Source of the DNA: Dictyostelium discoideum
Taxonomy: Eukaryota
Length of the DNA stretch: 64,000 nt
Assembly (NCBI GenBank): GCA_000004695.1
Contig: CM000151.3
Coordinates: forward strand, 2,208,001 to 2,272,000
Direction: 5' to 3'
The notes under the pieces were generated by a model. It did not search any database, had not been told where the DNA came from, and saw nothing but the letters and a program-made list of their open reading frames with translations. Positions 47,761 through 60,087 of this stretch are shown piece after piece; the first letter of the stretch is position 1; every line of letters begins with the position of its first letter. The translations under genes were made by a program, and so were the position numbers.

Positions 47761-47995
47761 TTTAAAATAAATGAAAAAATAAAATGAAAAAATAAAAAAA
47801 AAAAAAAAAAAAAAAGGGAAAAAAACAAAAAAAAAGAAAAAAAAAAACAAAAAAAAAGCGAAAAAACTGAAAAAAAAAATTGGAAAAAACTGAGAGTTTT
47901 TAAATAAGATGTTTATTTGTGGCAATATTATTACATTTATAAATAATATATTATTGGTGGTTTAATATATAAATTATAATTTAATTTTTGTAATT

Positions 47996-48334
47996 TTAAT
48001 TACAACCACAATTGTTTGAACCTCCAGTTAAAATGGAACCAACTCCATGTAAAACAGAACCAACAATTACACCAGTACCAGTAAGAACACCACCAACGAG
48101 ACCACCGACTGCACCGAGTAATCCTCCATTTCCACAACCACCGCATTGAATTGAATTCATTGATTGTAAAGAAGATGACGAGTTTGATAATGATGATAAA
48201 TTATTTGATTTTGAAATTGATTTAACATTACCAATTGATGAGATTGAAGCTATTTTAATAATAAAATTTAGAATTATTATTTATTTATTTTTTTTTTTTT
48301 AATTAATTTCTTTTTACATACCTAAAATTGTCAT
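47996..48334 (-). CDS. HssA/2C/7E-family small Gly/Ser-rich protein, array copy A, 88 aa. It has 2 exons: complement(48322..48334) and complement(47996..48249).
   Basis: A 13-nt first exon ATGACAATTTTAG with a GTATGT donor and a 72-nt intron lead to a second exon encoding [84 protein letters not shown]. The family is identified from the CGGC...GLLG(G/A)VGGLVGGVL...GSNNCGCN pattern. Confidence 0.75.
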
Positions 48335-48416
48335 TTTTATATTTGTTTAATTTTTATTTGTTTGATATACTAATTTTTTTTTTTTTTTTCTTATTAATAC
48401 TTTTTTTTTTATATGT

Positions 48417-48472
<56 letters not shown>

Positions 48473-48947
48473 AACCAAAATGGTAGATTAATTATTGATA
48501 TTCATATTTACAAGATTCTATTATAATATATGTATACTTATGAAAATAATCATATGAATAGGGTAACATGTTTTTTTTAAAGGTTATATAAAGTTAACTT
48601 TTATTAGAAAAATCACAATCACAATCACAATCACAATCACAATAACAATGTAAATTTTTTAAAAAAAATTAATTGTATTCTAATTAGGAAACAGTTTTTA
48701 TACCATTTTAGAACATTTCTTATTTTTTAAAAAAAAAACAATACAATCTAATGACAGTTTTGTTAAAAGGTCAAAAATAATACCCCATTCGTTTTTTTTT
48801 TTTTTTTTTTAAACCCCCTATTAATAAATAAAAAATCAATTAAAAATTATAGATTCAAACAAGGATTGATTGTTTTATATAGAATTAATACATGAATATA
48901 TCATTTTGATGAGAAGTTAATAATTCTTAATATTTTAATAGTATTTT

Positions 48948-48990
<43 letters not shown>

Positions 48991-49062
48991 AATAAAAATA
49001 GTTTATATTTTTTTCATAATTTATTATTATAAAACAAACAAATAAACATTTAAAAATTACAA

Positions 49063-49416
49063 ATGACAATCTTAGGTAATATTTTAAATAATATATTTAA
49101 ATTTTAAATATATATTTAAAAAAACAATATTAATAAATTTTAAAAATTTCAAAATAATTAAATAGCTTCAATCTCTTCAATTGGTAATGTTAAATCAATT
49201 TCAAAATCAAATAATGTATCATTATCAAATTCATCATCTTCTTTACAATCAATGAATTCAATTCAATGCGGTGGTTGTGGAAATGGAGGATTACTCGGTG
49301 CAGTCGGTGGTCTCGTTGGTGGTGTTCTTACTGGTACTGGTGTAATTGTTGGTTCTGTTTTACATGGAGTTGGTTCCATTTTAACTGGAGGCTCAAATAA
49401 TTGTGGTTGTAATTAA
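49063..49416 (+). CDS. HssA/2C/7E-family protein, array copy B, 87 aa. It has 2 exons: 49063..49075 and 49166..49416.
   Basis: Same 13-nt first exon (ATGACAATCTTAG|GTAATA), a 90-nt intron and a second exon 97% identical to copy A. It is head-to-head with copy A, with 730 bp between the two start codons. Confidence 0.75.
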
Positions 49417-49905
49417 AATTACAAAAATTAAATTATTTATATTTTAAATTAACCAAAAATAAAACCCAATTTTATAATTTGTAAAATAAAAAAAAAAAAA
49501 AAAAAAAAAAATATTAAGTAATACCTTTTTTAAAATTATTATTTAAATTATTATATTTCAAAGTAGTTCTTTTTTTTAAAAAAATAATAAAAGAGTTGTA
49601 ACTTTAAAAAATTATTGGTTGGTCTTTTAAATATAAAAAAAAAAAAAAAAAAAAAATTCCAAATTAAATTATTCCTGGGTAATGCAAATTTTAATAATTT
49701 AAAAAAAATTAAAAAAATAAAAAAAATTATTCAATCAAAAGGATTAATCATAAAAAAAATGAATTTTTATCAATTATTTCAACCTAATGTAATTATCTCA
49801 TTTATTACTTTTTCTTTTTTTTTTTTTCTTTTTTTTTTTACATTTACAAATAATTAAATTTTGTTTATTATAATTTATTTAATATATATTTATATTTTTG
49901 TAATT

Positions 49906-50244
49906 TTAATTACAACCACAATTGTTTGAACCTCCAGTTAAAATGGAACCGACTCCGTGTAAAACAGAACCAACGATTACACCAGTACCAACAAGAACTC
50001 CACCAACGAGACCACCAACTCCACCGAGTAATCCTCCATTTCCACAACCACCACCACATTGAATTGAATTCATTGATTGTAAAGAAGATGATGAATTTGA
50101 TAATGATGATAAATTATTTGATTTTGAAATTGATTTAACATTACCAATTGATGAGATTGAACCTATTTAATTGAAATTTTTAATTAATTACAATTTTTTT
50201 TTTTTTATATTTTTTTTTTTTTTTTTACATACCTAAGATGGCAT
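49906..50244 (-). pseudogene. HssA/2C/7E-family copy C with a disrupted first exon. Exon 1 is complement(50233..50244). Exon 2, complement(49906..50162), is intact.
   Basis: The first exon reads ATGCCATCTTAG|GTATGT, 12 nt with an in-frame TAG, where other copies have ATGACAAT(C/T)TTAG (13 nt). This is a 1-nt deletion plus substitutions. Exon 2 would encode a normal family protein if it were entered in phase 1. Confidence 0.5.
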
Positions 50245-50342
50245 TTTATTTATTAAGGTTTGGTTATATTTTGGTTTGGATAATTATAAATTTTTAATTT
50301 TTTCAAAATGATACTTTTTTTTTTTTATATAAAAACTTTTAA

Positions 50343-50385
<43 letters not shown>

Positions 50386-50984
50386 ATTATGTATTTGTTT
50401 TTATTAAATAATTGCAAAAAAATATAAGATACCCTACATTATCATTTATATAAAAAATTATATCTTAGATCATTATGATTTATTTTTTAAGGAAATAATG
50501 GGTTAAATTTTAAGAGAAAATAACACAATCACAATTTAAATTATTATAAAATTTATAGATTATTAAATATACAATTCAAATTAAGAAATAACACTTTACC
50601 ATTCTTGGATGATTCTTTTAAATCTTTTATATTCACTATTTAAGAATATCTATCTATATACAAAATTATCGAAAATGATAAACACAACTTTTTTAAACCC
50701 CCCAAAAAAAAAAAAAAAAAAAAAAAAAATAATAAAAAAATAATAAAAAAAAAAAAAATAAAAAATAAAAAATAAAACAAAGATTGAGTGATAAATTCAG
50801 ATTTAATGTATACATCTACAACGATATTATGATTAAAAGTTAAAGCAATACATAAATTTATTACTATTTAATTTTATTTATTTTTCAATTATTTTATTAA
50901 AAAAAAAAATTATAAAAACTTTTTTTTTTTTTTTTTTTTTTATATTCCAAAACAAACAATTAATACTAAAAAATAATATAAAAA

Positions 50985-51337
50985 ATGACAATCTTAGGTA
51001 TGCTTTATATTTTGTAAAAAAAAAATTAATTATTAAATACTTATTTTTCAAAATTTACTATAATAATAATTATTAAATAGGTTCAATCTCATCAATTGGT
51101 AATGTTAAATCAATTTCAAAATCAAATAATTTATCATCACTATCAAATTCATCATCTTCTTTACAATCAATGAATTCAATTCAATGTGGCGGTGGTTGTG
51201 GAAATGGAGGATTACTCGGTGCAGTTGGTGGTCTCGTTGGTGGTGTTCTTACTGGTACTGGTGTAATTGTTGGTTCTGTTTTACATGGAGTTGGTTCCAT
51301 TTTAACTGGAGGTCCAAACAATTGTGGCTGTAATTAA
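50985..51337 (+). CDS. HssA/2C/7E-family protein, array copy D, 89 aa. It has 2 exons: 50985..50997 and 51081..51337.
   Basis: ATGACAATCTTAG|GTATGC, an 83-nt intron, and exon 2 encoding [85 protein letters not shown]. It is head-to-head with copy C. Confidence 0.75.
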
Positions 51338-51873
51338 AATTACAAAATTAAATTATAATTTATATATTAAACCAACCAAAAATTTAACCTCAATTTTATA
51401 ATTTGTAAAATAAAAAAAAATAAAAAATAGAAATATTTAATAATACTTTTTTAAAATTATTTTTAATTATTTAAATTTCAAAGCAGTTCTTTATTTAAAA
51501 AAAACTAATAAAAGAGTTGTAACTTTAAAATTATAAGTTTGTCTTTTAATTAAAAAAAAAAAACCACAAAAAAAAAAAAAAAAAAAATTCCAAATTAATC
51601 CTAGGTAATGAAAATTTAAATAATAATAATTTAAAAAAAAATTAAAACATAAAAAAATCATTCAATCAAAAAGATTAATCATAAAGAAAATGAATTTTTA
51701 TCAATAACCTCATTAATTACTCAAAATACTTTTTTTTTTTTTTTTTTTTTTTATCAATAACCTCATTAATTACTCAAAGCTTTTTTTTTTTTTTTTTTTT
51801 TTTTTTACATTTACAAATAATTAAACTTTGTTTATTTTTAATTTATTTAATATATATTTATAATTTTTTAATT

Positions 51874-52210
51874 TTAATTACAACCACAATTGTTTGAACC
51901 TCCAGTTAAAATGGAACCGACTCCGTGTAAAACAGAACCAACAATTACACCAGTACCAACAAGAACTCCACCAACGAGACCACCAACTCCACCGAGTAAT
52001 CCTCCATTTCCACAACCACCACCACATTGAATTGAATTCATTGATTGTAAAGAAGATGATGAATTTGATAATGATGATAAATTATTTGATTTTGAAATTA
52101 ATTTAACATTACCAATTGAAGAGATTGAACCTATTTAATAATAAAATTTATTAATACAATTTTTTTTTTTTTTATTTTTTATTTATTTTTTACATACCTA
52201 AGATTGTCAT
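51874..52210 (-). CDS. HssA/2C/7E-family protein, array copy E, 89 aa. It has 2 exons: complement(52198..52210) and complement(51874..52130).
   Basis: ATGACAATCTTAG|GTATGT, a 67-nt intron, then exon 2. It is nearly identical to copy C exon 2. The ORF-track ORFs at 49926..50138 and 51894..52106 are antisense readings of copies C and E. Confidence 0.75.
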
Positions 52211-52697
52211 TTTATTTGTTTTGTTTTGTTTTGTTTTTATTTTGTTTTGTATATTATTAATATTTTTTTTTTTTTCTTATTTATACTTTTTTTTTATTTA
52301 TAAAAACTTTAAATTTTTTGAAAAAAAAAAAAAAAAACTATATTTTTATTTTTAATAATAACTAAACAATTGTAAAAAATATAAGATACCCTACATTTTC
52401 ATTTATTTAAAAAATTGTATCTTAGATCAGTATGATTTATTTATTAAGGAAATAATAGGTTAAATTTTAAGAGAAAATAACACAATCACAATTTATTATA
52501 AAATTTATAGATTATTAAATATACAATTCAAATTAAGAAATAACACTTTACCATTCTTGGATGATTCTTTTAAATCTTTTATATTCACTATTTAAGAATA
52601 TCTATCTATATACAAAATTATCGAAAATGATAAACACAACTTTTTTAAACCCCCAAAAAAAAAAAAAAAAAAAAAAAATAAAAATAATAAAAAAAAA

Positions 52698-52728
<31 letters not shown>

Positions 52729-52936
52729 AAACAAAGATTGAGTGATACATTGAGATTTAATATACATCTACAACTATATTATGATTAGAAGTTAAACCAA
52801 TACATAAATTTAATATTATTTAATATTATTTATTTTTCAATTATTTTATTAAAAAAAAAAAATTATAAATACTTTTTTTTTTTTTTTTTTTTTATTCCAA
52901 AACAAACAAATAAATAATACTAAATAATAATAAAAA

Positions 52937-53314
52937 ATGACAATCTTAGGTATGTTTTATTTTTGTAAAAAAAAATAAATAAAAAAATAAAATAAAAAAA
53001 AAATTTAATTATTAAATACTTATTTTAAAATTTACTATAATAACAATTATTAAATAGGTTCAATCTCATCAATTGGTAATGTTAAGTCAATTACAAAATC
53101 AAATAATTTATCATCATTATCAAATTCATCATCTTCTACACAATCAATGAATTCAATTCAATGTGGTGGTGGTTGTGGAAATGGAGGATTACTCGGTGGA
53201 GTTGGTGGTCTTGTTGGTGGTGTTCTTGTTGGTACTGGTGTAATCATTGGTTCTGTTTTACACGGAGTCGGTTCCATTTTAACTGGAGGTTCAAACAATT
53301 GTGGTTGTAATTAA
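52937..53314 (+). CDS. HssA/2C/7E-family protein, array copy F, 89 aa. It has 2 exons: 52937..52949 and 53058..53314.
   Basis: ATGACAATCTTAG|GTATGT, a 108-nt intron, and exon 2 encoding ...[51 protein letters not shown]. It is head-to-head with copy E. Confidence 0.75.
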
Positions 53315-53700
53315 AATTACAAACTTAAATTATAATTAAAATATTAAACCAACCAAAAATAAAACCCAATTTTTTAATTTGTAAAATAAAAAAAAAAAAA
53401 AATAGAATTATTTAATTATACTTTTTTTAAAATTATTTTTTAAATTTATTATTTTTCAAAGTTGTTCTTTATTTAAAAAATTAATAAGAGTTGTAACTTT
53501 AAATTACAAGTTTGTCTTTTAAATATAAAAAAAAAAAATCACAAAAAAAAAAAATTCCAAATTAAATTATCCCTGGATAAGAAAATTTAAATAATAATAA
53601 ATTTAAAAAAAAATAAAAAAATAAAAAAAATCATTCAATCAAAAAGATTAATCATAAAGAAAATGAATTTTTATCAAAAACCTCATTAATTACTCAAAAT

Positions 53701-53759
<59 letters not shown>

Positions 53760-53978
53760 TTATGCTTTTGAATAGAAATCTCCGTTTGGCTGTCCTCGAT
53801 ATGATTATAATCTTCCATCACTCTCGATTAATATATCAAATTATTGTTTTCAAAAGATAATAAATTAACTACATCAATAAAATATATTAACCCCTTTTTA
53901 AAAAGGGGGTCCAAAAAACAAAAACAAAAATTTATATTAAATTTTATATTTGCACACAAATAAAAATAACACAGCTGT

Positions 53979-54010
<32 letters not shown>

Positions 54011-54116
54011 CAGACCCTGTTTGATAACGTAGTGATAAATACTTTTTTATTTATTTATTTTTTTATTAATATTCCAAAACGAACAAACAAATAATACTAT
54101 TAAATAATATCAAAAA

Positions 54117-54432
54117 ATGACAATCTTAGGTATGCTTTATTTTTTGTAAAAAAAAAAAAAAAAAAAAAAATATTTAAATTATTTGTTTTTTAAAAATTTA
54201 ATAATAATTTTATATAGGTTTAATTTCATCAATTAGTAATGTTAAATCAATTTCGAAATCAAATAATTTATCATCATTATCAAATTCATTATCTTCTTTA
54301 CAATCAATGAATTCAATTGAACGCCGTGGCGGCATTAGCATTAGCAATCCAGGATTTCTCGGTGGAATTGGTCGTAACCCTGGTGGTATTCTTGTTGAAA
54401 CTTATGGAAGCTTGGAGGGGGTTCCATTTTAA
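54117..54432 (+). pseudogene. Divergent, frameshifted HssA/2C/7E-family copy G. Exon 1 is 54117..54129 and exon 2 is 54218..54432 (75 aa as read).
   Basis: Normal first exon and intron. Exon 2 keeps ...[30 protein letters not shown], but the Cys/Gly core is replaced ([37 protein letters not shown]). A 10-nt deficit relative to other copies puts the stop at 54430-54432, ahead of the family's C-terminus. It is either a pseudogene or a divergent Cys-free paralog. Confidence 0.45.
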
Positions 54433-55031
54433 CTGGAGGTTCAAACAATTGTGGTTGTAATTAAAATTACAAAAATTAAATTATAATTTAAATATTAAAC
54501 CAACCAAAAATAAATCCCAATTTTACAATTTGTAAATGAAATAAAAAAAGAGTAATCTTATCTAAATTTTTTTTTTCTAAAATTCAAATAATTATCTTTA
54601 AAATAAAATAAAAATGTAATAAATAAAAATAAAATAAAATAAAATAAAAATAGTATAAAATAAAAATAAAAAAAAAAAATAAAAATAAAATTAAAATAAA
54701 ATAAAAATAAAATAAAATAAAATAATATAAAAAGAATCAATGGTATGTGATAGTGGAGGTAAGTCAGTGCTGTTCTCACTAATGGTGAATTTATTAAAAT
54801 ATTTTTTGTTCAATCGTTGGTGCATTAACAAAATTATTTATATTCTATCTTTTAAACTAAAATTCAAATATTTAAAAATAAAAAATTAAAAATAAAAAAT
54901 TAAAAATAAAAATAAAAAAAATTCCTTTGCCTGAGGGAGGAGATTGATAATTAATTATTACTAATAATAATAATAATAATAATAAATCTTTATTTTTTGG
55001 AAAATGAAAAAAAAAAAAAAAATTGTGATGG

Positions 55032-55131
55032 NNNNNNNNNNNNNNNNNNNNNNNNNNNNNNNNNNNNNNNNNNNNNNNNNNNNNNNNNNNNNNNNNNNNN
55101 NNNNNNNNNNNNNNNNNNNNNNNNNNNNNNN
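55032..55131. other. Assembly gap (100 N)
   Basis: Run of exactly 100 n characters. The left edge of the gap lies inside sequence that is duplicated at +4002 bp. Confidence 0.99.
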
Positions 55132-57125
55132 TGATGTGTTGATGTCAAATGACTAGTAATCTATAAAAATCAAAGTCCGGTTCAAATTTAAAGTCATTTT
55201 AAAAATTTAAATATTTTTCGCTAAAAATTTAAAAAAAATCGATTTTTCAAAAATGGATCGGGGTTTTTATATTTAAAAATCATTCATAAGTAAATTGTTC
55301 CTATTTCCTATAAATTTTCTATAAATTTGAGAATGTTTAAAAACATATACGTTTTTAAATCCTACGAGTAATATTCCTTTTATTTTAATGAAAAGTTATC
55401 ACCTACGAAAAAACACCAAAAAACAGCGATTTTTTCAGAATTTTTTTAGGGGTCTATTTGACCCGCCAGACTACGCGCGTTGTTTCGAGGCTGTGTCAGT
55501 ACATCTGGAAAGCTTACTAGGAACCGTCGGTCGAGTGAACTAAATAGGAGTAATATTTATGAAAGTTACAGTGAAATTTTGCACTTTTTTACCCCCAAAA
55601 ATAGGGGGTACTTGAGAAAGTTTTTTGTAAACCAATTTTTTTTTTAACTTGCCATTTAAAAAGTAAGACATACAAAAGATAGCCCTCATTTTCAGCTATA
55701 TTATATCTAAAAATCATTGGAATAAAAAAATAGTACATATTTTTTTCGAATTTTTTTCGAACCTCCAAATTGAAATTTCTCACATTAATTTTTTTTTTTT
55801 TTATATGAAAAATTTTTTGGCGCCAAAATTTTAATAAGTTTTGATCGTGACCCCCTAGGCAAAAACGGAAAAATACATTAACATCGCCAAGAATATAACT
55901 AATTACAGTTACCTCACGGTCGACTCACCATAAAACCACTGTAATCTGTAAATGAGGATCCAATGTCATATTTTTACGAACTTCCGAGTTAAATAAAAAA
56001 TTGTGTTACTTGGTTGACTCTGCCGTGAGGTAACAGTAAGTGTAAAATTAAAATATCTATCTTTTAAAAAAACTTTGATTGATAAGGAACGACACCATTT
56101 AAATTTTTCGCTAAAATACACCAATTTTTGAATTTATTGGAAAATTTTCACTTTTCGTCCCCAGTCTTTATATTCACTATATGCACATAAGCTATTTGGT
56201 AAAATGTGTCAGAATATCTCTCATTGAGTCTAGTTGCTACTTTTATGGGTCTACATTCACTCAATTTCGTTAATTAAAATATCTATAAAGTTCCTTGAAA
56301 AATCCACGAAAAAACACTGTTTTTGGTGTGTCAACTTGGCGAATTTTTTAGGGGGTCCAGTACCCCCCTTTAAAATACGATCTTGTGTCAGATTATCCCA
56401 AATGCTCTGGAAAGCTTACTAGGAACCGTCGGTCGAGTGAACACGAGGGACTTTTTACTTAGCCTCCTTACACCAAAAAAAACTTGGGAAAAATGGTGAT
56501 TTTTCACTTACCACCCGCCAAAGATTCGATTGAATATTTAATAAAAAAAAATTGAGTGCAAAAAGCGAAATACAGAAGTTAGATACACGATAGATCATTA
56601 ACATACTCAAAAAGAATTAAATTTTAACGAGACGATTTACGCGCAGAATTTTTTTCGATTTTCCGAAAAAAAATTTCTCCATATAAAAAAATTTTTGAAA
56701 ATTTTTTAAAATTTTTTTTTCAGTAATTTTAATTTTTGGTACCTTAATGACCCCGTAGATAAACCGGATCAAGTGATTTCAACTTAGAATTTAATTCTAC
56801 GTCTACCATTACTCATTGGTCGAGTCACCGGTAAACCATAGATTTTTATTTTTCCTCAGATTCAGGCATCGATTCTCGTTGTTGACAAGCCTCAAAATTT
56901 ACTATATCTCAATATTAATTAAAATTAACAAATACAAAAAATAAAGCTCTTTTATATGTATATTGTGGAAGTGGCTATATTCGCTCAATTTTTTTTTATT
57001 AAATATTTTTCATTTTTGCCGGAAAAAAAAAAAAAAAAAAAATTTTCAACTTTCGTCCGAAGTTCCTAAATTTTTTTCTCACTTTAAAATTTAAAAATCC
57101 AATCATACAAAAACATCATAAAAGG
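55132..57125. mobile_element. GC-richer (about 33% GC), ORF-less insertion of about 2 kb built from two diverged tandem units of about 900 bp. It may be a non-autonomous transposon or retroelement UTR-module fragment, or a mis-joined repeat. It is unclassified.
   Basis: Its composition contrasts sharply with the flanking sequence, which is over 80% A+T. There are paired motifs 900 bp apart: CTGGAAAGCTTACTAGGAACCGTCGGTCGAGTGAAC at about 55505 and about 56405, TTTTTCGCTAAAA at about 55215 and about 56103, and CGGTCGACTCACCATAAAACCA / TGGTCGAGTCACCGGTAAACCA at about 55917 and about 56818. A 12-bp inverted repeat GTTACCTCACGG (55908-55919) / CCGTGAGGTAAC (56023-56034) brackets a hairpin-capable segment of about 100 bp. 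The right edge at 57125-57133 abuts a truncated HssA-family copy. The only ORFs are two short ones, of 62 and 64 aa. Confidence 0.4.
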
Positions 57126-57132
57126 GTGAGGA

Positions 57133-57314
57133 TGCTTCTTTACAATCAATGAATTCAATTCAATGTGGTGGTGGTTGTGGAAATGGAGGATTACTCGGTG
57201 GAGTTGGTGGTCTTGTTGGTGGTGTTCTTGTTGGTACTGGTGTAATCATTGGTTCTGTTTTACACGGAGTCGGTTCCATTTTAACTGGAGGTTCAAACAA
57301 TTGTGGTTGTAATT
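57133..57314 (+). pseudogene. 5'-truncated HssA/2C/7E-family copy H (3' 182 nt only)
   Basis: It is identical to the 3' part of copy F's exon 2, ...[16 protein letters not shown]...SNNCGCN*, and to F's downstream flank. Everything upstream of the codon equivalent to SSL(Q) is replaced by the GC-richer insertion. Confidence 0.7.
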
Positions 57315-57702
57315 AAAATTACAAACTTAAATTATAATTAAAATATTAAACCAACCAAAAATAAAACCCAATTTTTTAATTTGTAAAATAAAAAAAAAAA
57401 AAAATAGAATTATTTAATTATACTTTTTTTAAAATTATTTTTTAAATTTATTATTTTTCAAAGTTGTTCTTTATTTAAAAAATTAATAAGAGTTGTAACT
57501 TTAAATTACAAGTTTGTCTTTTAAATATAAAAAAAAAAAATCACAAAAAAAAAAAATTCCAAATTAAATTATCCCTGGATAAGAAAATTTAAATAATAAT
57601 AAATTTAAAAAAAAATAAAAAAATAAAAAAAATCATTCAATCAAAAAGATTAATCATAAAGAAAATGAATTTTTATCAAAAACCTCATTAATTACTCAAA
57701 AT

Positions 57703-57761
<59 letters not shown>

Positions 57762-57980
57762 TTATGCTTTTGAATAGAAATCTCCGTTTGGCTGTCCTCG
57801 ATATGATTATAATCTTCCATCACTCTCGATTAATATATCAAATTATTGTTTTCAAAAGATAATAAATTAACTACATCAATAAAATATATTAACCCCTTTT
57901 TAAAAAGGGGGTCCAAAAAACAAAAACAAAAATTTATATTAAATTTTATATTTGCACACAAATAAAAATAACACAGCTGT

Positions 57981-58012
<32 letters not shown>

Positions 58013-58118
58013 CAGACCCTGTTTGATAACGTAGTGATAAATACTTTTTTATTTATTTATTTTTTTATTAATATTCCAAAACGAACAAACAAATAATACT
58101 ATTAAATAATATCAAAAA

Positions 58119-58434
58119 ATGACAATCTTAGGTATGCTTTATTTTTTGTAAAAAAAAAAAAAAAAAAAAAAATATTTAAATTATTTGTTTTTTAAAAATT
58201 TAATAATAATTTTATATAGGTTTAATTTCATCAATTAGTAATGTTAAATCAATTTCGAAATCAAATAATTTATCATCATTATCAAATTCATTATCTTCTT
58301 TACAATCAATGAATTCAATTGAACGCCGTGGCGGCATTAGCATTAGCAATCCAGGATTTCTCGGTGGAATTGGTCGTAACCCTGGTGGTATTCTTGTTGA
58401 AACTTATGGAAGCTTGGAGGGGGTTCCATTTTAA
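58119..58434 (+). pseudogene. Divergent HssA/2C/7E-family copy I, a duplicate of copy G at +4002 bp
   Basis: 58119..58131 and 58220..58434 match 54117..54432 base for base as far as I can compare them. The ORF-track entries 54558..54779 and 58560..58781 are identical and share the same 4002 bp offset. Confidence 0.45.
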
Positions 58435-59354
58435 CTGGAGGTTCAAACAATTGTGGTTGTAATTAAAATTACAAAAATTAAATTATAATTTAAATATTAA
58501 ACCAACCAAAAATAAATCCCAATTTTACAATTTGTAAATGAAATAAAAAAAGAGTAATCTTATCTAAATTTTTTTTTTCTAAAATTCAAATAATTATCTT
58601 TAAAATAAAATAAAAATGTAATAAATAAAAATAAAATAAAATAAAATAAAAATAGTATAAAATAAAAATAAAAAAAAAAAATAAAAATAAAATTAAAATA
58701 AAATAAAAATAAAATAAAATAAAATAATATAAAAAGAATCAATGGTATGTGATAGTGGAGGTAAGTCAGTGCTGTTCTCACTAATGGTGAATTTATTAAA
58801 ATATTTTTTGTTCAATCGTTGGTGCATTAACAAAATTATTTATATTCTATCTTTTAAACTAAAATTCAAATATTTAAAAATAAAAAATTAAAAATAAAAA
58901 ATTAAAAATAAAAATAAAAAAAATTCATTTGCCTGAGGGAGGAGATTGATAATTAATTATTAATAATAATAATAATAATAATAATAAATCTTTATTTTTT
59001 GGAAAATGAAAAAAAAAAAAAAAATTGTGATGGTGCGAATTCGATAACAGAGAGCACAAAATGCTGATTTTTTTTTTTTTTTTTATTATTTATAAAATTT
59101 TAAAAATAAATCAACAATAATGTAATTTTAGTTTTATATCATTGGTGCGTTTTGGTGGGTCACATTTACAAAGAGTGGGTTCACAGAAAAAAAAAAAAAA
59201 AAAATTGGTTGCATAATTAATAGTTGATCATCAAATTGATTATTATAACAATACAATTTTTTCACCCACCAATAAATCATTTTCAAAAAAAAAATTATTT
59301 TTATCCAAACCAAATATAAAAAACAAACAAAAATAAAAATAAAAAAAAAAAAAT

Positions 59355-59386
<32 letters not shown>

Positions 59387-60087
59387 GAAATCGTTCAAGA
59401 AAAAAAAAAATTTTTAAAATTAAATTAATTTAAATAAAAAAAAATAAAAAAAAAATAAAAAAAGAAATTAGAAAAAAAGAAATTAGAAAAATTTTTAAAA
59501 AAAAAAAAAACTATTTGCTATTCTTATTCAAATTTAAAATAAATAAATAAATACACACGCAATATATCTTTTTTTGTGATTTTTTTATTACTATAATTTG
59601 TTTTGTTTTTTTTTTTTTTTCCAAACATTAAAAGGAGTTATAGTTGTTAGTGGTTTTCAACATATCAATCTTGTGTGTTTTTGGAAAATAAAACTATAAT
59701 TTGTAATTTACACTTTTTTTGGTTATTAAATTCTTAATAATTTTATTTATTTATTTTTTTTTTTAATAATTTTGTTTTAATAACACCACAATTTTTACCT
59801 AAATTTTTTTTTTTTTTTTTTTTTGTTTTCATTCACACCAACTCCTTATAACTTTTTTTATTTTTTTATTTTTTATTTTTTTTTTATTTTTTTTTTTTTT
59901 AAATAATTAAATTTTAGTGTGTAACATTTTTGTTTTTTTAATCTACCATCACACAATATAAATAATAATATCATAGATACAAAATATATATACACACATA
60001 TACACACACTCACACACTTTATTAAATAAAAAGTAATATAATTTTTCCAGTATAAATAAAAAAAAAAGAAAAAAAAAATAAAAGAGG

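What the first reader, a model, noticed from the sequence alone, without database searches (positions are those of the whole stretch)
55132..57125. ORF-less insertion of about 33% GC made of two diverged tandem units of about 900 bp, truncating an HssA-family gene
The composition here is unlike the host DNA, which is over 80% A+T. There are no ORFs above 65 aa. Internal motif pairs lie about 900 bp apart, including a 36-nt exact repeat CTGGAAAGCTTACTAGGAACCGTCGGTCGAGTGAAC. There is also a 12-bp inverted repeat flanking a segment of about 100 bp. The right boundary replaces the 5' half of an array gene (copy H). This is what a non-autonomous transposon or retroelement UTR-module fragment would look like; Dictyostelium TRE-type elements carry repeated non-coding modules. 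It could also be foreign or mis-assembled sequence next to the gap. I cannot place it in a named family from memory.
Basis: partly seen in the sequence, partly recalled or inferred. Interest (0 to 1): 0.5.

Follow-up and report, generated by a model that had tools for sequence, protein, structure and literature searches.

The report
Assembly seam at known duplication edge
The 2-kb "insertion" that seems to cut a small Dictyostelium gene in half is most likely not an insertion at this spot: it sits where two overlapping pieces of the AX4 reference assembly were placed side by side, at the edge of the well-known AX3/AX4 chromosome-2 duplication.

Summary
A 2.0-kb ORF-poor segment ("E", 55132-57134) follows the window's only gap. 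It has 29% GC and about 2.2 diverged units of roughly 900 bp that share an exact 37-mer. It abuts an hssA-family gene lacking its 5' half.

The context changes the reading. The 1.9 kb before the gap (53133-55031, "A") matches the 1.9 kb after E (57135-59033, "A'") almost exactly. The match ends at the gap on one side and starts at the end of E on the other.

An independent, near-identical D. discoideum assembly (GCA_054883475.1, probably AX2-214) has one copy of A, an intact hssA gene, no E and no gap. Three more diverged relatives also lack E at this locus.

The window is AX4 chromosome 2. Genes left of E are single-copy in AX4 and genes right of it are two-copy. So the edge of the known 752,571-bp AX3/AX4 inverse duplication lies here, probably at the first base of E.

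Best reading: two overlapping contigs were left unmerged because their flanks conflict. E is the flank of the duplicated-block contig. It is probably the true rearrangement junction of the distal copy, less probably a chimeric clone. I found no support for a transposon. E's native origin is unresolved.

The parts
52937..53314 (+). Intact hssA-family gene. Exon 1 is 52937-52949, the intron 52950-53057, exon 2 53058-53314. Its 3' part from 53133 belongs to block A.
   Evidence: Read directly from the sequence. The X|A junction 53110-53170 is 100% identical in the independent assembly L001.
53133..55031 (+). Block A: the end of the left contig. It is the same sequence as A' and runs up to the gap.
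   Evidence: 99.8% identical to 57135-59033 over 1899 bp. The only internal differences, 54925 and 54961 (C versus A), lie within 110 bp of the gap. L001 carries the A' variants there.
54117..54432 (+). 75-aa hssA-like gene inside A. Spliced product MTILGLISSIS...EGVPF = DDB_G0273025 / DDB_G0274097.
   Evidence: The exact product is in the collection under two AX4 gene ids. The sequence was read.
55032..55131 (.). 100-N assembly gap, the only one in the window.
55132..57134 (.). Segment E: 29% GC, ORF-poor, no detectable homologue. It is the first 2 kb of the right-hand contig.
55132..56029 (+). Unit 1 of the ~900-bp tandem structure, cut at its left end by the gap.
   Evidence: Alignment A1; anchor pairs.
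56030..56927 (+). Unit 2.
56928..57134 (+). Partial unit 3, cut by the junction with hssA sequence.
   Evidence: Family D7: 56141-56174 versus 57039-57072, 76% identical, spacing 898.
55504..55540 (+). Exactly conserved 37-mer TCTGGAAAGCTTACTAGGAACCGTCGGTCGAGTGAAC, copy 1.
   Evidence: family D5.
56406..56442 (+). The same 37-mer, copy 2.
   Evidence: family D5.
55903..56039 (.). Inverted repeat of unit 1: arms 55903-55927 and 56015-56039.
   Evidence: I10; DNA fold -18.7 kcal/mol, z = -2.8.
57135..59033 (+). Block A', the same sequence as A. It starts in mid exon 2 of the hssA gene (truncated ORF 57149-57316) and contains a second copy of the 75-aa gene (58119-58434).
   Evidence: In L001 and L003 both A and A' map to one and the same stretch, which runs straight on into 59034 and beyond. 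Positions 57140-57141 are TT, where A and AX2 have AC and all other paralogues have TT.

Best explanation
This is an assembly seam, not an insertion at this locus.

The window is D. discoideum AX4 chromosome 2, at the proximal edge of the AX3/AX4-specific 752,571-bp tandem inverse duplication. Shotgun reads from the two copies of the duplicated block are indistinguishable inside the block, but they diverge at its outer edge.
- One copy is flanked by the ancestral sequence: X, the hssA array and the 5' half of the gene.
- The other copy is flanked by something else, namely E.

The assembly therefore contains two contigs.
- The left contig reads X into the block for 1.9 kb (A) and stops at 55031.
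- The block contig starts with 2 kb of E, joined in mid exon 2 of the hssA gene, and continues A', Y and the downstream genes.

The flanks conflict, so the contigs could not be merged. They were laid end to end with a 100-N gap. This created a false 1.9-kb direct repeat, a false second copy of the 75-aa gene and an apparently truncated hssA 'copy H'.

The true sequence at this locus is X|A|Y, as in AX2-214.

Inferred, not shown: the E|hssA join is the real in-vivo junction at the distal end of the inverted copy, about 1.5 Mb away on the opposite strand. E is then the DNA next to that junction, either the start of the single-copy region beyond the duplication or filler captured during the rearrangement.

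The internal ~900-bp units of E reflect an old local tandem duplication. The perfectly kept 37-mer is unexplained.
For: Shown:
1. A (53133-55031) and A' (57135-59033) are 99.8% identical at a constant offset of 4002. The identity ends exactly at the gap and begins exactly at the end of E.
2. The only internal differences (54925, 54961) lie in the last 110 bp of the left contig. An independent assembly agrees with A' at both, as expected of a low-quality contig end.
3. In GCA_054883475.1, contig JBTAPE010000001.1, A occurs once, flanked by X on one side and Y on the other, with no E and no gap. L001 1-21496 aligns with window 33414-55031, and L001 19622-21947 aligns with window 57135-59490. The rest of the 21.6 kb shows 26 substitutions and only homopolymer-length indels. 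L003 confirms this from the other side.
4. That assembly comes from the project that sequenced AX2-214, which has no chromosome-2 duplication (PMC12745789).
5. E has no BLAST hit in the orthologous loci of four assemblies.
6. Window genes match AX4 chromosome 2, an 8,484,197-bp record. DDB_G0272809, isocitrate lyase and seryl-tRNA synthetase each have one AX4 accession. ADRM1 and the 75-aa gene, both right of E, each have two. So the duplication edge lies between 45.4 kb and 62.2 kb.
7. Bloomfield et al. 2008 (PMC2643946) describe a 'tandem inverse duplication' of 752,571 bp starting at 2,249,563 in assembly v2.5.

From memory, not tool-verified: dictyBase v2.7 gives the block as 2,263,132-3,015,703, which is the same length of 752,571. 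Then 2,263,132 - 55,132 = 2,208,000 = 69 x 32,000. If windows start on round coordinates, the block starts at the first base after the gap, which is the first base of E.
Against: - I could not search the whole AX4 or AX2 genome, so E's native location is unknown. The claim that E flanks the distal copy is inference.
- A' differs from A and from AX2 at 57140-57141. It has TT, the form carried by every other hssA paralogue, where A has AC. A simple copy of A would carry AC. This needs an extra event at the junction (for example template switching), a junction read from a paralogue, or an error.
- The mapping of window coordinate 55132 to chromosome coordinate 2,263,132 rests on my recollection and on an assumed round window offset.
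- The identification of GCA_054883475.1 as AX2-214 is inferred from near-identity and the project's strain list. It is not read from the record.
- The AX4 chromosome itself was not retrievable, so I could not inspect the other copy of the block.
Confidence: 0.62

Rival explanations
1. Chimeric clone or mis-join. E is unrelated DNA that was ligated in vitro to a fragment starting in the hssA gene. Candidates are another D. discoideum locus, the roughly 2-kb mitochondrial non-coding region, the non-coding part of the extrachromosomal rDNA palindrome, or a contaminant. The chimeric insert extended the right-hand contig by 2 kb and blocked its merger with the left contig.
For: - The same redundancy and gap geometry applies, and E is absent from AX2-214.
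- E is about the length of a small-insert clone arm and ends at a gap.
- E has the composition of mitochondrial DNA: 70.7% A+T here, against 72.6% for the mitochondrial genome (my recollection). The mitochondrial genome has an ORF-less non-coding region of about 2 kb (PMC3724811).
- The rDNA palindrome has long non-coding, internally duplicated stretches (PMC5391098).
- Nothing E-like turned up in proteins or in any searchable DNA collection.
Against: - The seam coincides with the edge of the known duplication. A real second flank predicts that; a random chimera predicts it only if the block start was simply set at the nearest gap.
- The only sequence hint to the rDNA palindrome is a 13-mer shared with a published primer. 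It is not significant: 12 of 116 control tiles of the window do as well.
- E has no B-box motif and no Rfam hit.
- I could not obtain the mitochondrial or rDNA sequence to test these directly.
Confidence: 0.17
2. Genuine AX4-lineage insertion of a non-autonomous mobile element. The locus really carries two tandem copies of A, and E is a multi-copy non-coding element that landed in the second hssA copy. The gap hides its left end.
For: - E is compositionally distinct and internally repetitive, and it interrupts a coding exon.
- A' carries TT where A carries AC, which could mark a distinct copy.
Against: - E is absent from near-isogenic AX2-214.
- Apart from TT/AC and two contig-end bases, 1.9 kb of A and A' are identical, and the repeat ends exactly at the gap.
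- No second copy of E lies in 64 kb. There is no TE-protein remnant and no tRNA gene.
- The units are only about 55-60% identical, unlike the young, near-identical D. discoideum elements (my knowledge).
- Bloomfield et al. do not list this duplication among those with complex repeats within 10 kb of a breakpoint (PMC2643946).
Confidence: 0.08
3. E is filler DNA captured in vivo at the rearrangement junction when the inverse duplication formed, for example a mitochondrial or rDNA fragment pasted in during double-strand-break repair. The join would be real, but E would not be the native neighbour of the duplication.
For: - The evidence matches that for the best explanation as far as the junction being real.
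- E's organelle-like or rDNA-like composition and its lack of genes.
Against: There is no sequence evidence for any donor. At least 2 kb is long for captured filler. It could not be tested here.
Confidence: 0.08

Closest known systems
AX3/AX4 chromosome-2 tandem inverse duplication (duplication 2E of Bloomfield et al. 2008; Glöckner et al. 2002; Eichinger et al. 2005)
   Same: - Same chromosome.
- Gene copy number changes from one to two across the segment.
- Absent from AX2-214.
- The block length of 752,571 in the paper equals the length of the block I recall as starting at 2,263,132, which maps onto window position 55132.
   Different: The published descriptions I could read give only coordinates and say that breakpoint sequences still need detailed study. 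That one edge lies in exon 2 of an hssA-family gene, with a 2-kb unclassified segment attached, is not stated there.
Redundant (overlapping, unmerged) contig ends in draft or finished Sanger assemblies
   Same: A near-identical stretch lies on both sides of a gap. The identity stops at the gap. The private mismatches sit only at the contig end. An independent assembly has a single copy.
   Different: Here the failure to merge has a biological cause, namely two real and different left flanks of a duplicated block. It is not only a matter of low quality.
Dictyostelium non-autonomous or non-coding repeat modules (TRE5 A/B/C modules, DDT-S, thug-S/T)
   Same: Non-coding, GC-richer than intergenic DNA, and internally repeated.
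   Different: There is no tRNA gene nearby, no second copy in the window and no TE-protein remnant. The units are far more diverged than known families. E is absent from AX2-214 at this site. Family membership could not be tested by sequence because no repeat library is available in these tools.
[quoted passage not shown]
   Same: Tandem units several hundred bp long, largely diverged, with short and strongly conserved islands.
   Different: The period is about 900 bp, not 762. There is no B box and no significant sequence match. This is a resemblance only.

Membership tests
Transposable element insertion (any D. discoideum complex repeat) | More than one copy in the genome | tested here: inconclusive
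   No second copy in the 64-kb window or in five fetched loci of about 22 kb each. A genome-wide search is not possible with these tools.
Transposable element insertion (any D. discoideum complex repeat) | Remnants of element-encoded proteins (RT, endonuclease, gag, tyrosine recombinase, transposase) | tested here: not met
   A concatenate of 19 selected stop-to-stop frames of E (the higher-complexity ones among the 35 frames of at least 28 aa) had no hit at E <= 0.01 among 5.8 billion clusters. Ten selected start-to-stop ORFs (nine in E, plus the truncated hssA ORF 57149-57316) are absent from the collection.
Transposable element insertion (any D. discoideum complex repeat) | Defined termini (TIR, LTR or poly-A) and a target-site duplication | not testable with these tools
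   The left end is under the gap. The right end shows no terminal structure. The one strong inverted repeat is internal to unit 1.
Transposable element insertion (any D. discoideum complex repeat) | Similarity to the curated Dictyostelium repeat library | not testable with these tools
   No library is available here. Indirectly, Bloomfield et al. BLASTed 20 kb around breakpoints against it and do not list this duplication among those with repeats nearby.
TRE5/TRE3 tRNA-gene-targeted retroelements | Integration about 50 bp upstream or 100 bp downstream of a tRNA gene | tested here: not met
   ARAGORN finds no tRNA gene in the whole window. There is no B box in E.
Redundant contig overlap / assembly seam | Near-identical sequence on both sides of a gap, ending at the gap | tested here: met
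   53133-55031 versus 57135-59033, 99.8% identical over 1899 bp at offset 4002.
Redundant contig overlap / assembly seam | A single copy and continuity in an independent assembly of a near-identical strain | tested here: met
   L001 and L003 of GCA_054883475.1 show X|A|Y once.
Redundant contig overlap / assembly seam | Read-level evidence (depth, clone ends) that A and A' are one locus | not testable with these tools
   There is no access to reads.
Breakpoint of the AX3/AX4 chromosome-2 inverse duplication | Genes single-copy on one side and two-copy on the other in AX4 | tested here: met
   One AX4 accession each for DDB_G0272809, isocitrate lyase and seryl-tRNA synthetase. Two each for ADRM1 and the 75-aa gene.
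Breakpoint of the AX3/AX4 chromosome-2 inverse duplication | Coordinate equals the published block start | tested here: inconclusive
   The paper gives 2,249,563 (v2.5) and a length of 752,571. The mapping of 55132 to 2,263,132 (v2.7) rests on memory and on an assumed round window offset.
Breakpoint of the AX3/AX4 chromosome-2 inverse duplication | The E|hssA join is present in AX4 DNA at the distal end of the inverted copy | not testable with these tools
   The AX4 chromosome and its reads could not be retrieved.
Nuclear copy or chimera of mitochondrial DNA or the rDNA palindrome | Sequence identity to AB000109 or AY171066 | not testable with these tools
Published palindrome primers give only chance-level matches. 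The papers carrying the sequences are not held.

The most novel reading that the evidence does not exclude
E is a genuine, so far unclassified non-coding element of D. discoideum. It would be a tandem array of ancient ~900-bp units whose 37-nt core (TCTGGAAAGCTTACTAGGAACCGTCGGTCGAGTGAAC), and a GC hairpin upstream of it that keeps its shape while its sequence differs between the two units, are held by selection. Possible roles are a replication, transcription or protein-binding site. The element would lie at, and perhaps have provoked, the breakpoint of the AX3/AX4 duplication.
Probability: 0.12. Interest if true: 0.45.

Novelty: not a real feature. Interest (0 to 1): 0.17.

Why it matters
For users of the AX4 reference, this spot carries a false 1.9-kb repeat, a spurious extra copy of a small gene (the DDB_G0273025/DDB_G0274097 type) and a spurious truncated hssA gene. 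Read mapping, copy-number calls and gene counts for the hssA/2C/7E family will be slightly wrong here.

If the inferred part is right, the E|hssA join gives base-level resolution of one breakpoint of the AX3/AX4 duplication. It would place that breakpoint inside an array of inverted hssA paralogues, which bears on how the rearrangement arose. Bloomfield et al. 2008 noted that the breakpoint sequences still needed detailed investigation.

It says nothing new about mobile elements.

Tried and rejected
1. Other copies of E. BLASTN of E against the window gave only itself and the 37-mer pair.
2. RNA genes. There are no tRNAs in the window and no Rfam hit at E <= 1 in 54000-58500.
3. Coding potential. 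Ten selected start-to-stop ORFs (nine in E, one the truncated hssA ORF) are absent from the 15-billion-protein collection. A concatenate of 19 selected stop-to-stop frames of E found no homologue.
4. Exact-pattern scans. The conserved 37-mer (34-, 28- and 22-nt pieces) and the inverted-repeat arm gave zero hits in viral, metagenome (2 scans) and prokaryote genome (2 scans) collections.
5. BLASTN ('distant' mode) of E against plasmids and phages gave no match. Together with the 29% GC this excludes anything resembling a plasmid in PLSDB; bare cloning vectors and E. coli chromosomal DNA were not searched directly.
6. rDNA-palindrome idea. I matched 32 published palindrome primers (PMC5391098, S1 Table) to E. 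The best result was an exact 13-mer, but 12 of 116 control tiles of the window reach 13 or more, so I dropped it as evidence. There is no B box GTTCRANNC in E.
7. Mitochondrial non-coding-region idea. It is supported only by size and composition. The papers with the sequence (PMC2779680, PMC154234, PMC1352341) are not held.
8. A full-text search of papers for six 15-16-mers of E gave nothing.
9. Protein searches to reach the AX4 orthologues of the flanking hydrolase and hssA genes failed to return the D. discoideum proteins. I got around this by splicing ADRM1 by hand and looking up its cluster.
10. The AX4 chromosome itself is not in the gene-position index, so the second copy of the duplicated block could not be inspected.
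11. Microhomology at the junction (CTTCT) first looked like evidence for in-vivo joining. However, CTTCTTT is simply the consensus of all other hssA paralogues, so it is ambiguous.
Full report
**What is in the sequence**

The window is AT-rich Dictyostelium DNA carrying an array of small hssA-family genes. Its only N-run is 55032-55131.

Directly after the gap comes a stretch, here called E, running from 55132 to about 57134. E is 29.3% GC, against 21.4% for the rest of the window. Its longest start-to-stop ORF is 64 aa.

E is internally repetitive.
- Many anchor pairs lie 890-903 bp apart.
- Aligning 55132-56029, 56030-56927 and 56928-57139 gives a colinear but very diverged alignment. Mean column identity is 54%, with short conserved islands.
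- The most striking island is an exact 37-mer, TCTGGAAAGCTTACTAGGAACCGTCGGTCGAGTGAAC, at 55504 and 56406.
- Unit 1 alone carries a 25-nt inverted repeat, 84% complementary, with arms 87 nt apart (fold z = -2.8).

At 57135 the sequence becomes the middle of exon 2 of an hssA gene. The intact neighbouring copy at 52937-53314 shows what is missing.

GC is 29%, not 33%. The exact repeat is 37 nt, not 36. There are about 2.2 units, not 2.

A BLAST of the region against the window shows that 53133-55031 (A) and 57135-59033 (A') are 99.8% identical over 1899 bp, at a constant offset of 4002. The identity stops exactly at the gap on the left copy. It starts exactly where E ends on the right copy.

There are only four differences.
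- Two are at the junction: 57140-57141 is TT, where 53138-53139 is AC.
- Two are C/A differences at 54925 and 54961, within the last 110 bp before the gap.

After 59033 the sequence continues as unique DNA (Y). The layout is therefore X | A | gap | E | A' | Y. E has no other copy in the window.

**Independent assemblies**

Exact look-ups show that the window's genes are those of D. discoideum AX4 chromosome 2, an 8,484,197-bp record. Examples are DDB_G0272809, isocitrate lyase and seryl-tRNA synthetase.

The same collection holds new long-read assemblies. Two loci were fetched from GCA_054883475.1, contig JBTAPE010000001.1.
- One was fetched through DDB_G0272809 (L001).
- One was fetched through ADRM1, which I spliced by hand (L003).

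These loci are almost identical to the window. Over 21.6 kb there are 26 substitutions, and every indel is a homopolymer-length change.

In this assembly A occurs once.
- L001 1-21496 aligns with window 33414-55031.
- L001 19622-21947 aligns with window 57135-59490.
- So A and A' map to the same stretch. That stretch is preceded by X with an intact hssA gene and followed directly by Y.
- At 54925 and 54961 it carries the A' bases, so the two odd C's are private to the end of the left contig.

E gives no BLAST hit in this assembly's loci. It also gives none in the orthologous loci of two more diverged D. discoideum isolates and one 'cf. discoideum' isolate (L002, L004, L005).

The assemblies belong to the project of Holland et al. 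2025 (PMC12745789). Its only NC4-derived strain is AX2-214, and the authors found no duplicated sequence in it. I therefore take GCA_054883475.1 to be AX2-214. This is an inference from near-identity.

**Link to the chromosome-2 duplication**

Copy number in AX4 changes across the segment.
- ADRM1 (62.2-63.8 kb, minus strand) has two AX4 accessions.
- The 75-aa hssA-like gene inside A and A' has two gene ids, DDB_G0273025 and DDB_G0274097.
- The genes to the left each have one accession.

So the edge of the AX3/AX4-specific duplication lies between 45.4 and 62.2 kb of the window.

Bloomfield et al. 2008 (PMC2643946) describe a 'tandem inverse duplication' with its point of inversion to the right. 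In assembly v2.5 it starts at 2,249,563 and ends at 3,002,134, a length of 752,571 bp 'revealed by the sequence itself'.

From memory, dictyBase v2.7 gives the block as 2,263,132-3,015,703, repeated at 3,016,083-3,768,654. The length is again 752,571, and both ends are shifted by 13,569. Then 2,263,132 - 55,132 = 2,208,000 = 69 x 32,000. If the window starts on a round coordinate, the block begins at the first base after the gap, which is the first base of E. This point is not tool-verified.

**Explanation**

Reads from the two copies of the block are identical inside it and differ only in the outer flank. One flank is ancestral (X). The other is whatever the inverted copy was joined to.

The left contig followed X into the block for 1.9 kb. 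The block contig carries the other flank, E. The two could not be merged because X and E conflict, so they were set down with a gap between them. Placing the block contig at the proximal position then produces an apparent insertion and an apparent truncated gene.

At this locus the real sequence is X|A|Y. I hold this part with high confidence.

It is an inference that E|A' is a genuine in-vivo junction belonging to the distal end of the inverted copy. It is favoured because the seam coincides with the duplication edge.

A chimeric clone is the main rival. The chimera could include mitochondrial or rDNA-palindrome DNA.
- The mitochondrial genome has an ORF-less non-coding region of about 2 kb (PMC3724811).
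- The rDNA palindrome has internally duplicated non-coding DNA (PMC5391098).

I could test neither directly.

**What E is not, as far as could be tested**

- No protein remnants.
- No tRNA gene or B box.
- No Rfam family.
- No match in plasmids or phages.
- No exact match of its most conserved motifs in viral, metagenome or prokaryote collections.
- No mention of its motifs in the paper library.
- A 13-mer shared with a palindrome primer is at chance level.
- Bloomfield et al. screened breakpoint regions against the complex-repeat library. They do not list this duplication among those with repeats within 10 kb.

**Loose ends**

- A' has TT at 57140-57141, like every other hssA paralogue in the window. 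Copy A and AX2-214 have AC. This could reflect template switching among the inverted paralogues during the rearrangement, a junction read from a paralogue, or an error.
- The exact 37-mer in otherwise diverged units is unexplained.
- So is the small GC hairpin upstream of it. It is kept in both units with different sequence: GGGGTC...GACCC in one and GGGGGT...ACCCCC in the other.

**Verdict**

As an insertion or mobile element at this locus, the feature is not real. It is a seam of the AX4 reference at the edge of a known, strain-specific duplication. Interest is low. What remains of value is a reference correction and a candidate base-level breakpoint.

Noticed in passing
window 38855, 38857 and 41204: Three of the few isolated substitutions between the AX4 window and the AX2-like assembly create ATGGATCC in AX4, which contains a BamHI site. 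ATGGATCCGGGT in AX4 is ATGGATACAGGT in L001, at the start codon of the 151-aa phosphatase ORF (38849). AAATGGATCC in AX4 is AAATAGATCC in L001. These could be true strain differences, or reference errors introduced from engineered or PCR-derived clones.
   Followed up: no
window 49924-50354: A cluster of 19 substitutions between AX4 and the AX2-like assembly lies within 430 bp of one hssA array unit. The rest of the 21 kb has about 5. AX4's version is 95% identical to the orthologous AX2 stretch and matches no other paralogue better (the next best is 90%). This suggests gene conversion from an unseen copy or local mis-assembly in one of the two assemblies.
   Followed up: partly
window 54117-54432 and 58119-58434: The annotated 75-aa gene (DDB_G0273025/DDB_G0274097) looks like an hssA-family member whose C-terminal half is read in a shifted frame. 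Its product ends ...GSLEGVPF*, while the hssA C-terminus ...GGSNNCGCN is encoded just downstream in another frame. It is possibly a frameshifted pseudogene.
   Followed up: no
window 47949-53330: The hssA genes are arranged as alternating inverted pairs, with units of about 2 kb that are 85-91% identical (minus, plus, minus, plus, minus, plus). This palindrome-rich array lies right at the edge of an inverse duplication and may be relevant to how the rearrangement started.
   Followed up: no
L002 14050-19022; L004 and L005 about 13.5-21.7 kb: The hssA array between the P450 gene and the alpha/beta-hydrolase gene differs greatly in size and unit number among isolates. It is about 5 kb in the 'cf. 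discoideum' isolate and about 9 kb (true length, without E and A') in AX4 and AX2. This indicates rapid turnover of the array.
   Followed up: no
window 57705-57728 (equivalent to 53703-53726) and other homopolymers: Every indel between AX4 and the AX2-like assembly is a shorter homopolymer run in the long-read assembly, for example 24 T missing from the 57-T run. This is probably homopolymer compression in nanopore-based assembly or real length polymorphism, and it should be ignored when comparing strains.
   Followed up: no
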